A DNA stretch of 54,566 nt, from the NCBI GenBank assembly GCA_041481535.1, contig JBGPBZ010000003.1, forward strand, positions 1-54,566, read 5' to 3'. The position numbers and the translations under genes are program-made. Positions 30,208 to 30,371 of the stretch are shown one piece after another (the stretch's first letter is position 1; every line of letters begins with the position of its first letter). Under the pieces are notes generated by a model. The model was not told the origin of the DNA and did no database searches. It saw only the letters and a program-made list of their open reading frames with translations. Source of the DNA: Dehalococcoidia bacterium (lineage in GTDB: Bacteria > Chloroflexota > Dehalococcoidia > SM23-28-2 > RBG-16-64-32).

Positions 30208-30274
30208 AAAGAAAAAGGAACGGGATTGCGCCCGTTCCTTATCGGCGTGTACCGAGACCGCTTGATACCGCAAT
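30208..30274 (-). ncRNA. Candidate anti-tRNA antisense sRNA unit C (matches a GAT-anticodon allo-tRNA)
   Basis: CATACT -10; plus strand reads TCGG-cgtgta-CCGA-G-ACCGC-TTGATAC; terminator aggaacggg...cccgttcct with U-tract on the minus strand. Confidence 0.55.
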
Positions 30275-30293
30275 CAGTATGAACCAGGGCCGA

Positions 30294-30361
30294 GAGAAAA
30301 GAACCGGGTCGTGGCCCGCTCCTCAGTCGGCTAAGCGCCGAGGCCGATTGATAACCACTAT
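30294..30361 (-). ncRNA. Candidate anti-tRNA antisense sRNA unit B (matches a GAT-anticodon allo-tRNA)
   Basis: TATACT -10; plus strand reads TCGG-ctaagcg-CCGA-G-GCCGA-TTGATAA; degenerate homologous terminator. Confidence 0.55.
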
Positions 30362-30371
30362 CAGTATAGCG

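What the first reader, a model, noticed from the sequence alone, without database searches (positions are those of the whole stretch)
30208..30368. Orphan antisense units B and C target GAT-anticodon allo-tRNAs not present here, suggesting an immunity array
The plus strand reads CCGA-G-GCCGA-TTGATAA (30338-30354) and CCGA-G-ACCGC-TTGATAC (30252-30268). These are in the same register as the tRNA's CCGA-C-GCTAC-CTGAGAA, but with different stems and anticodon GAT (Ile). Each unit is preceded by a -10 box (TATACT / CATACT) then gat(a/t)g. The CCGA D-stem differs from canonical tRNA-Ile (GAGC), so the host tRNA is unlikely to be the target. Inference: accumulated antitoxins against allo-tRNAs elsewhere in the genome or on incoming mobile elements.
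Basis: inference. Interest (0 to 1): 0.8.

Follow-up and report, generated by a model that had tools for sequence, protein, structure and literature searches.

The report
Orphan antisense RNAs for odd tRNAs
Two small RNA genes beside an oddly shaped "allo" tRNA are extra copies of the antisense RNA that always accompanies such tRNAs, but their own matching tRNAs are missing, which is the pattern expected of antidotes that outlive their poison.

Summary
On the minus strand, rpsI is followed by an 8/4 allo-tRNA(GAG) at 30562-30476, then unit A, its exact 16-nt antisense, then units B and C.

- **B and C belong to the unit family.** Profiles built only from units of other genomes find five hits in this 2.3-Mb MAG: A, B, C and the units behind the two other resident allo-tRNAs. 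B and C align in register and read as complements of anticodon loops UUGAUAA and UUGAUAC, that is anticodon GAU.
- **No cognate tRNA was found.** I searched this assembly (76% complete), 65 genomes of the order, 151 of the class, and public genome, metagenome and viral collections by pattern. The resident allo-tRNA(GAU) on contig C9 has its own unit and fits B and C poorly.
- **The family is asymmetric.** 23 of 23 allo-tRNAs carry a unit directly behind them. 12 of 36 units have no tRNA: 6 are extras in arrays and 6 stand alone. One pseudo-tRNA keeps an intact unit.

I read B and C as orphan antidotes of an RNA-only poison/antidote module. Whether they now act as immunity is not shown. Both lack a -35 box and B has a weak terminator.

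The scan has flagged the tRNA/antisense pairing before on other DNA. The orphan units and the asymmetry are new here.

The parts
30694..31113 (-). rpsI (ribosomal protein S9), the upstream neighbour; context only
   Evidence: Pfam Ribosomal_S9, E=8e-43
30647..30674 (-). Intrinsic terminator of rpsI
   Evidence: 12-bp stem followed by a T-run
30575..30583 (-). Leader motif GAGCGGAGA, the exact complement of the tRNA's 3' end plus trailer (TCTCCGCTC). A similar motif precedes the allo-tRNAs of relatives.
   Evidence: Read directly from the sequence and from the upstream flanks printed. Function not tested.
30476..30562 (-). 8/4 allo-tRNA with anticodon GAG: 8-bp acceptor stem, 5-bp D stem, long variable arm, 4-bp T stem, G73, no encoded CCA
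   Evidence: Rfam tRNA-Sec 30.8 bits, below the gathering score. Family model R1 92.9 bits. Covarying stems in 17 sequences. ARAGORN does not call it.
30371..30467 (-). Unit A, the cognate antisense sRNA gene. -35 box TTGACA at 30467-30462. -10-like TAAAGC at 30445-30440. Targeting segment at 30431-30416. Terminator at 30404-30379.
   Evidence: 16-nt exact complement of the tRNA's D-stem 3' strand, anticodon stem and loop. Seed duplex -37.5 kcal/mol. Terminator. HMM and CM hits.
30292..30368 (-). Unit B, an orphan antisense sRNA gene. -10 box TATACT at 30368-30363, with no -35 box. Targeting segment at 30360-30338, with core TTATCAA, the complement of loop UUGAUAA. Small hairpin at 30341-30327. 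Weak terminator at about 30317-30301.
   Evidence: nhmmer E=8e-6. CM 40.9 bits. The fold is no better than shuffled sequence, z=-0.68. The terminator has only 5 pairs. No partner within 2 mismatches in the genome.
30207..30281 (-). Unit C, an orphan antisense sRNA gene. -10 box CATACT at 30281-30276, with no -35 box. Targeting segment at 30275-30252, with core GTATCAA, the complement of loop UUGAUAC. Small hairpin at 30255-30242. Strong terminator at 30240-30215.
   Evidence: nhmmer E=2.5e-4. CM 36.9 bits. Fold z=-3.91. The 10-bp terminator is nearly identical to that of unit A. No partner within 2 mismatches in the genome.
29183..30205 (+). IS481-family insertion sequence (transposase ORF 29284-30195) that abuts the tail of unit C
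   Evidence: Pfam rve, LZ_Tnp_IS481 and HTH_32. The ends are defined by other copies at the contig ends of C137, C70 and C21. Inverted ends TGTGGTG... and ...CACTACA read. I saw no target-site duplication.

Best explanation
Units B and C are two genuine members of the small antisense-RNA gene family that sits directly behind every 8/4 allo-tRNA in this Dehalococcoidia family, but they have no tRNA of their own.

Each unit is built as a mirror image of the 5' half of an allo-tRNA. A 5' targeting segment complements the anticodon loop and the 5' strand of the anticodon stem. A small hairpin mirrors the D arm. A terminator follows. Read back, B and C specify allo-tRNAs with loops UUGAUAA and UUGAUAC (anticodon GAU) and D arms of the type found in this genus.

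The tRNAs have the hallmarks of serine tRNAs (long variable arm, G73) but carry anticodons for the commonest Ile, Val and Leu codons. They are therefore probably harmful unless masked. I read tRNA plus unit as an RNA-only poison/antidote pair.

B and C most likely are what remains of two further modules that lost the tRNA and kept the antidote, a fate seen repeatedly in the family. If transcribed, they would pair with and mask a matching allo-tRNA(GAU). No such target is resident.

Shown: family membership, register, absence of a partner, and the family-wide asymmetry. Inferred: toxicity, masking, transcription, and the order of loss.
For: 1. Membership. HMM and CM models trained only on foreign cognate units pick out A, B, C and the C53 and C9 units, and nothing else, in the whole genome. 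The type-2 terminator GGAACRGGC..GCCYGTTCC, at up to 2 mismatches, matches both strands at A, C, the C9 unit and one further place (C12:22471-22491), which has no T-run behind it and which neither profile picks up.

2. The module is real.
- All 3 resident allo-tRNAs (C3 GAG, C53 GAC, C9 GAU) are followed by a TTGACA promoter, a cognate antisense segment and a terminator.
- Of 31 distinct allo-tRNAs collected, 29 have a unit found by my parser. One has its unit about 330 nt downstream. One is cut by its contig end.
- The own tRNA ranks first of 31 for 19 of 29 units, and in the top four for 27 of 29. The cognate score median is 33, against 17 for 870 non-cognate pairs.

3. Asymmetry across 43 family genomes.
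- 23 of 23 allo-tRNAs (52 bits or more) have a unit within 150 nt downstream.
- Of 36 unit hits, 23 are in that position, 6 are extra units in arrays and 6 stand alone with no tRNA within 330 nt upstream. One weak hit was not inspected.

4. Order of decay. G021:C310 holds a pseudo-allo-tRNA with a deleted T loop and a changed loop, followed by an intact unit that still matches the undamaged loop. G012 and G014 keep only the unit at the metK-ahcY spacer, where their congener G015 has tRNA plus unit with the same 15-nt core.

5. B and C are not aimed at resident tRNAs. Seed duplex energies are -11.7 to -17.8 kcal/mol, against -34.7 to -37.5 for the three cognate pairs.

6. Plausible toxicity. 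AUC, GUC and CUC are the top Ile, Val and Leu codons, at 40.2, 37.2 and 35.4 per 1000 in 500 long ORFs. A Ser-charged allo-tRNA with a Leu anticodon arrested and killed E. coli when induced (PMC5389517, passages read).
Against: - No transcript evidence exists. No RNA run holds the stretch.
- B and C have only a -10 box, and B's terminator is degraded. They may be silent relics, or may be read only by run-through from unit A.
- The assembly is 76% complete, so a partner tRNA could lie in the missing part. Against this, every known tRNA carries its own adjacent unit.
- Toxicity and serine charging are inferred from a different lineage's allo-tRNAs.
- The anticodon stems here are imperfect, with a non-Watson-Crick pair closing a 7-nt loop. 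These RNAs may not decode at all.
- A test for selection on orphan units was inconclusive. The G012 and G014 orphans are 63/71 identical, the same as the flanking coding DNA.
- Kin are not independent. The 12 orphan units represent fewer loss events than 12.
Confidence: 0.6

Rival explanations
1. Maintained immunity, or anti-addiction. B and C are kept by selection because they neutralise matching allo-tRNA(GAU) poisons that arrive by gene transfer from related strains. The row of units is then a small immunity repertoire.
For: - Extra units are intact in several genomes. The second unit of G015 has TTGACT-N17-GATATT and a strong terminator.
- A tRNA + unit 1 + unit 2 layout is shared by four diverged loci at the ahcY 3' end (L211, L241, L243, L160). 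The scaffold, hairpin and terminator are conserved while the targeting segment differs.
- A and C have near-identical terminators but different targeting segments.
- Solitary orphans persist in genomes where no allo-tRNA was detected: G012, G014 and G050.
- Tandem full modules exist that could supply such arrays: G010, at two loci.
Against: - No foreign allo-tRNA matches B or C better than chance pairing within this family. The best of 31 is -30.8 and -31.3 kcal/mol, while ordinary units reach a median of -37.0 with their best non-cognate.
- No copy of the tRNA family was found in 2.9 million viral contigs.
- No -35 box before B or C, and B's terminator is eroded.
- The selection test was inconclusive.
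- No route of delivery is known.
Confidence: 0.28
2. B and C have living partners in the unassembled quarter of the genome, or in co-resident strains, and are second copies acting in trans.
For: The MAG is 75.97% complete in 159 contigs. In the run that may be the source, other contigs diverge from the tRNA's 3' half into a different GAU-type anticodon arm. The loose end at 30518 reads, on the tRNA strand...CGCCGTTTGATAACCGG.
Against: That arm differs from the targets of both B and C. In 23 of 23 cases the cognate unit is adjacent to its tRNA, so a remote partner would be a new arrangement. No match within 2 mismatches in 2.32 Mb.
Confidence: 0.1
3. B and C act on resident RNAs: the C9 allo-tRNA(GAU), the neighbouring tRNA(GAG) through its D arm, canonical tRNA-Ile, or an mRNA.
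For: B has 8 Watson-Crick pairs plus one G-U with the anticodon loop of the C9 tRNA (GGTTATCA against TGATAACC; sequences). B's small hairpin is the complement of the D arm of the C3 tRNA at 14 of 15 positions: 13 Watson-Crick pairs, 1 G-U and 1 mismatch (score 24).
Against: - Seed energies against all three resident allo-tRNAs are at background, -11.7 to -17.8 against a median of about -16.4 over 31 tRNAs.
- Extra units in other genomes also score at background against their neighbouring tRNA: 14 to 20, against a cognate median of 33.
- The best score against 42 canonical tRNAs of this genome plus the genus's tRNA-Ile is 25 or less.
- No other near match in the genome.
Confidence: 0.07
4. B and C are not genes. 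They are chance look-alikes or dead duplication debris with no RNA product.
For: No promoter-like site passed the consensus scan in 30100-30750 (0 found). B's fold is no better than shuffled sequence. No RNA data.
Against: The same scan also misses the promoter of unit A. Profile E-values of 8e-6 and 2.5e-4 genome-wide cover the full length in register. C's fold has z=-3.91 with an intact 10-bp terminator. -10 boxes sit at the family's position.
Confidence: 0.1

Closest known systems
(8/4) allo-tRNAs (Mukai et al., Nucleic Acids Res 2017, PMC5389517; review PMC7609411)
   Same: 12-bp acceptor/T branch split 8/4, long variable arm, G73, non-serine anticodons. The papers report a link with toxin-antitoxin loci and transposons, and lethality in E. 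coli when a Leu-anticodon form is induced (passages read).
   Different: The passages and term searches of both texts hold no 'antisense' (0 occurrences). They name Clostridia, Proteobacteria and Acidobacteria as hosts, not Dehalococcoidia. Here the partner is an RNA gene, not a protein toxin-antitoxin pair. The supplements of PMC5389517 could not be opened and may list related sequences.
RNA-toxin/RNA-antitoxin pairs ('type VIII' TA: SdsR/RyeA, CreT/CreA).
   Same: Both partners are RNAs. The antidote acts through base pairing. CreT harms the cell through the tRNA supply.
   Different: Here the presumed poison is itself a decoding-competent-looking tRNA, and the antidote pairs with its anticodon arm. 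No Cas proteins are involved. Nothing has been tested at the bench.
Orphan antitoxins, anti-addiction modules and orphan immunity genes of bacteriocin or CDI loci. Recalled.
   Same: Antidote genes without a poison, often in rows next to a complete module, with specificity set by a short variable part.
   Different: Those are proteins. Here specificity is about 20 nt of RNA complementarity, and no protective effect is shown.
Antisense RNAs of type I TA and plasmid copy control (Sok, CopA, RNAI). Recalled.
   Same: Short, terminator-ended RNAs with a free or loop-presented 5' segment that pairs with a structured target. C's predicted 5' hairpin shows GGUAUCAA in its loop.
   Different: The target is a tRNA-shaped RNA encoded upstream on the same strand, not an overlapping mRNA. 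The unit is an inverted partial copy, not a true cis-antisense transcript.

Membership tests
(8/4) allo-tRNA (applies to the neighbour at 30476-30562 and to the inferred targets) | 8-bp acceptor stem plus 4-bp T stem (12-bp branch) | tested here: met
   cmscan alignment to tRNA-Sec. RNAalifold on 17 sequences gives 8 acceptor pairs and 4 T pairs.
(8/4) allo-tRNA | Serine-type identity set: long variable arm and G73 | tested here: met
   7-bp variable arm. G73 in 16 of 17 sequences (T in L169) and in all three resident tRNAs. That these are SerRS identity elements comes from the literature.
(8/4) allo-tRNA | Charged with serine and active on the ribosome | not testable with these tools
   No assay was possible. 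The anticodon stem is imperfect, with a 9-nt effective loop.
Allo-tRNA-linked antisense sRNA units of this Dehalococcoidia family (B and C as members) | Full-length match to a profile of cognate units from other genomes | tested here: met
   nhmmer gives B 8e-6 and C 2.5e-4. CM R2 gives B 40.9 bits and C 36.9 bits.
Allo-tRNA-linked antisense sRNA units | Anti-anticodon core in register, then a small hairpin, then an intrinsic terminator | tested here: met
   Alignments. Hairpins and terminators. B's terminator is weak.
Allo-tRNA-linked antisense sRNA units | TTGAC -35 box about 17 nt before the -10 box | tested here: not met
   B and C have TATACT and CATACT but no -35 box. Cognate units have TTGAC.
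Allo-tRNA-linked antisense sRNA units | Cognate allo-tRNA directly upstream | tested here: not met
   B follows A's terminator after 5 nt, and C follows B. There is no tRNA between them. This is what makes them orphans.
RNA-only toxin-antitoxin module | The poison is never found without the antidote, while antidotes occur alone | tested here: met
   23 of 23 tRNAs have a unit. 12 of 36 units have no tRNA.
RNA-only toxin-antitoxin module | The poison is harmful and the antidote neutralises it | not testable with these tools
   Only complementarity, codon usage and published toxicity of another allo-tRNA.
Immunity or anti-addiction array | A matching foreign poison exists | tested here: inconclusive
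   The best partners are an allo-tRNA on metagenome contig L240 for C (12 contiguous pairs plus 6 more; -34.5 kcal/mol with a 24-nt seed) and a G010 tRNA for B (-26.5). Both lie within the range of chance best-of-31 pairings.
Immunity or anti-addiction array | Orphans are under purifying selection or are expressed | tested here: inconclusive
   G012 and G014 orphans are 63/71 identical, against 136/150 and 134/151 in flanking genes. No RNA run is available.
T-box leader (considered) | Specifier codon plus a T-box sequence that pairs with the tRNA's NCCA end, controlling a downstream gene | tested here: not met
   No Rfam hit other than tRNA-Sec and weak terminator look-alikes in 30100-30750. 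Complementarity runs 13-20 nt into the stems. No downstream gene is controlled: the IS follows here, and a convergent ahcY follows elsewhere.

The most novel reading that the evidence does not exclude
Allo-tRNAs with Ile, Val and Leu anticodons and their mirror-image small RNAs form a self-contained RNA-only poison/antidote system. This would be the first in which the poison is a mistranslating tRNA. Orphan antidotes such as B and C would then be kept as heritable, sequence-specific immunity against related poisons that spread between strains, so that rows of units work as an RNA-level immunity repertoire.
Probability: 0.22. Interest if true: 0.85.

Novelty: new variant of a known kind. Interest (0 to 1): 0.62.

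Why it matters
Allo-tRNAs were described in 2017 as potential missense suppressors. It was left unexplained how a cell tolerates them.

A dedicated antisense RNA behind every copy would answer that. So would the one-sided pattern found here: no tRNA lacks an antisense unit, while a third of the units lack a tRNA. Together these would define an RNA-only addiction module.

The orphan units add the evolutionary signature that separates a poison/antidote pair from a mere regulator. They also offer ready-made specificity variants for testing. The system can be tested with three short RNAs in E. coli. It could supply programmable off-switches for engineered suppressor tRNAs.

Tried and rejected
- **Degenerate 17-mer scan of genome contigs.** Nearly all hits lie inside ORFs of unrelated phyla, so they are chance matches. 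The only structured hits were Bryobacterales hairpin repeats.
- **D-arm plus T-arm pattern.** It returned 18 loci, most of them labelled Solirubrobacterales or other Actinomycetota. I did not inspect them.
- **BLAST of the unit array against 43 family genomes, with re-alignment.** Apart from the query itself, only short GC-rich matches at E of 4.5e-6 or weaker. Two of them, in G012 and G014, later proved to be orphan units.
- **RNAduplex on whole units against whole tRNAs.** It did not discriminate, because long imperfect GC-rich duplexes dominate. I replaced it with ungapped scoring and short-segment energies.
- **Canonical tRNA targets.** 42 ARAGORN tRNAs of this genome plus tRNA-Ile(GAU) from relatives give no score above 25 for B or C. 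The first pattern for tRNA-Ile had the wrong gap and found nothing.
- **Expression.** No RNA holder is listed for the stretch.
- **Viral origin.** 0 hits to the 27-nt 3' motif in viral contigs.
- **One X2 contig joins 30240 to 30473.** The side is 34 nt and the letters between are not known. This fits a roughly 90%-identical relative with one unit behind its tRNA, but it is not decisive.
- **Selection test on the G012 and G014 orphans.** Inconclusive.
- **Hits of about 38 bits to the tRNA model R1.** I assumed these are ordinary long-arm tRNAs and did not inspect them.
- **Not used.** Protein tools, structure prediction and complex prediction, because the feature is RNA only.

Full report
**What is there**

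The window is the whole contig C3 of a MAG of 2.32 Mb in 159 contigs, 76% complete. Relatives that carry the same element are labelled Dehalococcoidia or Chloroflexota MAGs.

Read on the minus strand, the layout is as follows.

- rpsI at 31113-30694 (Pfam S9), ending in a terminator at 30674-30647.
- A tRNA-Sec-like gene at 30562-30476. ARAGORN misses it. Rfam scores it at 30.8 bits, below threshold.
- A TTGACA box, followed by three short terminator-ended units: A, B and C.
- An IS481-family element at 29183-30205 that abuts the tail of unit C. Its ends are defined by other copies at three contig ends. Its transposase has rve and LZ_Tnp_IS481 domains.

The tRNA has an 8-bp acceptor stem, a 5-bp D stem, a 7-bp variable arm, a 4-bp T stem, G73 and anticodon GAG. 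It is therefore an (8/4) allo-tRNA in the sense of Mukai et al. 2017.

**Checking the observation**

Unit A holds a 16-nt exact inverted copy of the tRNA's D-stem 3' strand, anticodon-stem 5' strand and loop. That 16-mer occurs nowhere else in the genome.

B and C differ from each other at 3 of 17 positions. At up to 2 mismatches they have no other match in the assembly.

**Is the unit a real, conserved thing?**

Yes. The genome holds two more allo-tRNAs: C53:14805-14720 (GAC) and C9:17192-17105 (GAU). Each is followed by TTGACA, a -10 box, a segment complementary to its own anticodon arm, and a terminator.

A covariance model of the tRNA (R1, 17 sequences, 11 of 29 pairs with compensatory changes) gave these results:

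- High-scoring copies (52 bits or more) in 15 of 43 genomes of the family, this genome included, and in none of the 22 genomes of the order's other families.
- Hits in 3 of 151 sampled genomes of the class.
- About 38-bit hits elsewhere, which I took for ordinary long-arm tRNAs and did not inspect.

Pattern scans added metagenome and named-genome copies, giving 31 distinct tRNAs.

- My terminator-based parser found a first unit behind 29 of them.
- One tRNA has its unit about 330 nt further on (L244).
- One tRNA is cut by its contig end (L238).

With an ungapped pairing score (Watson-Crick 2, G-U 1, mismatch -4):

- The own tRNA is the best of 31 partners for 19 of 29 first units, and among the best four for 27 of 29.
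- The cognate median is 33 (range 22-40).
- The median of 870 non-cognate pairs is 17, with a 95th percentile of 29.

Pairing maps to tRNA positions of about 21-45.

The small hairpin of the units mirrors the D arm. Each unit therefore looks like an inverted partial copy of a tRNA's 5' half.

**Are B and C members?**

An nhmmer profile of 26 foreign cognate units finds exactly five places in the genome at E<0.01. They are the C53 and C9 units, B (8e-6), C (2.5e-4) and A (5.7e-3). The next hit has E=0.63. A covariance model of 25 foreign units (R2) returns the same five.

In the alignments B's TTATCAA and C's GTATCAA lie on the family's anti-anticodon core.

The two units use different scaffolds:

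- B has the 'GAGGAG-GCGGGC' scaffold, like the C53 unit.
- C shares a near-identical 10-bp terminator with A.

They are therefore not fresh duplicates of one another.

Their state differs:

- C folds well (z=-3.9) and shows its core in a hairpin loop.
- B folds no better than shuffled sequence (z=-0.7), and its terminator is reduced to a 4-5-bp stem.
- Neither has a -35 box. B's -10 box starts 5 nt after A's tail.

**Is there a target?**

- Against the three resident allo-tRNAs, B and C give seed duplexes of -11.7 to -17.8 kcal/mol. The three cognate pairs give -34.7 to -37.5.
- The resident tRNA(GAU) on C9 offers B only 8 Watson-Crick pairs plus one G-U.
- Canonical tRNA-Ile(GAU) of the genus, taken from four relatives, and the 42 canonical tRNAs of this genome score 25 or less.

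Among all 31 allo-tRNAs, C's best partner is the tRNA on metagenome contig L240. It offers 12 contiguous pairs, then a mismatch, then 6 more pairs, at -34.5 kcal/mol with a 24-nt seed. B's best partner is a G010 tRNA at -26.5.

A like-for-like control weakens this. Ordinary first units reach a median of -37.0 with their best non-cognate partner. B and C reach -30.8 and -31.3 on the same measure. I therefore count no cognate as found.

Pattern scans for allo-tRNAs with a TTGATA[AC] loop returned 5 genome contigs and 7 metagenome contigs. None carries the B or C arm. No viral contig has the family's 3' motif.

In the run that may be the source of the MAG, other contigs branch from the tRNA's 3' half into a further GAU-type arm. 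That arm differs from both predicted targets.

**The family-wide pattern**

R2 found 36 units in 18 of 43 family genomes.

| Position of the unit | Count |
|---|---|
| Within 150 nt behind an allo-tRNA | 23 |
| Extra unit behind a cognate unit (B, C, and one each in G019, G031, G015, G021) | 6 |
| Alone, with no tRNA in the 330 nt upstream | 6 |
| Weak hit, not inspected | 1 |

- All 23 allo-tRNAs have a unit in the first position. That count includes the pseudo-tRNA described below.
- Of the six solitary units, four lie in the metK-ahcY spacer of G012, G014, G035 and G050. The other two lie in G035:C235 and G019:C39.

No tRNA lacks a unit, while a third of the units lack a tRNA.

Two intermediates show the direction of decay:

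- G021:C310 has a pseudo-tRNA with a deleted T loop and an altered loop. Its unit is intact and still matches the undamaged loop.
- G012 and G014 keep only the unit, with the same 15-nt core as the cognate unit of their congener G015.

Tandem complete modules, the likely precursors of arrays, exist at two loci of G010.

Four diverged loci at the ahcY 3' end share the layout tRNA, unit 1, unit 2. The scaffold of unit 2 is conserved and its targeting segment varies.

These genomes are kin, so the number of independent events is smaller than the counts.

**Mechanism, with what is shown and what is inferred**

Shown:

- complementarity and its co-variation with the tRNA;
- the strict adjacency of tRNA and unit;
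- the asymmetry between tRNAs and units.

Inferred:

- The allo-tRNAs are charged with serine, on the strength of the variable arm and G73. The literature reports serine insertion and cell death in E. coli for an acidobacterial allo-tRNA with a Leu anticodon (passages of PMC5389517 and PMC7609411 read).
- Their anticodons GAU, GAC and GAG read the most used Ile, Val and Leu codons here, at 40.2, 37.2 and 35.4 per 1000.
- The unit RNA pairs from the anticodon loop into the stem and D arm and so blocks decoding.

On this reading B and C are antidotes whose poisons are gone. Whether they are now idle relics, or are kept because they protect against related modules entering by gene transfer, cannot be decided with these data. 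My one test of selection was inconclusive, and there are no RNA data.

**Comparison with what is known**

- The tRNA meets the structural definition of an (8/4) allo-tRNA.
- The two texts I searched hold no occurrence of 'antisense'.
- Three full-text searches found no paper that describes an antisense partner of allo-tRNAs: 'allo-tRNA' (22 papers); antisense + anticodon loop + antitoxin + small RNA + tRNA (13 papers); 'missense suppressor tRNA' + antisense (2 papers).

Earlier notes of this scan describe the same tRNA/antisense pairing in other phyla. The pairing is therefore not new to the scan. No note mentions orphan units.

The nearest concepts are RNA/RNA ('type VIII') toxin-antitoxin pairs and orphan antitoxins or immunity genes, both recalled from memory. 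This would be a new variant of both.

**Verdict**

B and C are orphan anti-GAU units of a conserved family, but no target was found and an immunity role is unproven.
- What this finding adds is the asymmetry between tRNAs and units, and the recurrence of orphans.

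Noticed in passing
window 30575-30583 (-), and the upstream flanks of L209-L218: A leader motif GAGCGGAGA lies about 12 nt before the allo-tRNA. It is the exact complement of the tRNA's last acceptor bases plus trailer (TCTCCGCTC). Similar 'gagcggagacgc' leaders precede the tRNAs of relatives. It could form an alternative leader-trailer helix that competes with the acceptor stem.
   Followed up: partly
L228 (G021:C310:2241-2436): Pseudo-allo-tRNA with a deleted T loop and a changed anticodon loop. It is followed by an intact unit with promoter and terminator that still matches the unmutated loop.
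   Followed up: yes
L268, L272, L271, L277 (metK-ahcY spacers of G012, G014, G035, G050): The spacer between divergent metK and convergent ahcY is the commonest home of the module in this family. In these four genomes it holds only a solitary antisense unit.
   Followed up: yes
window 29183-30205: IS481-family element with imperfect inverted ends, inserted 0-2 nt after unit C's tail. I saw no target-site duplication (flanks ATCGTC and GGCAAA). Further copies sit at the ends of contigs C137, C70 and C21, where they probably break the assembly.
   Followed up: partly
L058, L061, L081 (Bryobacterales contigs): Runs of perfect hairpins with 7-nt anticodon-like loops, such as GGCCGA-TTGATAA-TCGGCC followed by GCAGG-TTGAYAA-CCTGC. 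They look like a repeat family of anticodon-stem-loop mimics and are unrelated to this locus.
   Followed up: no
alignment A1 (17 allo-tRNAs): In the five anticodon arms that I read through (own C3, own C9, L160, L166, own C53), the pair closing the 7-nt loop was non-Watson-Crick in four (C.A, U.C, C.C, A.C) and G-C in one (C53). The consensus fold of all 17 leaves that position unpaired, giving an effective 9-nt loop with a bulge in the 3' strand. Anticodons seen in the family are mostly GAU and GAC, with a few GAG, CAC and GUC.
   Followed up: partly
window 30476-30672 in runs X2 and X4: Other sediment metagenomes hold a roughly 90%-identical relative with the same rpsI-tRNA(GAG) linkage. 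It has a G-to-C change in the anticodon stem (window 30536), the same stem as in metagenome locus L237.
   Followed up: partly
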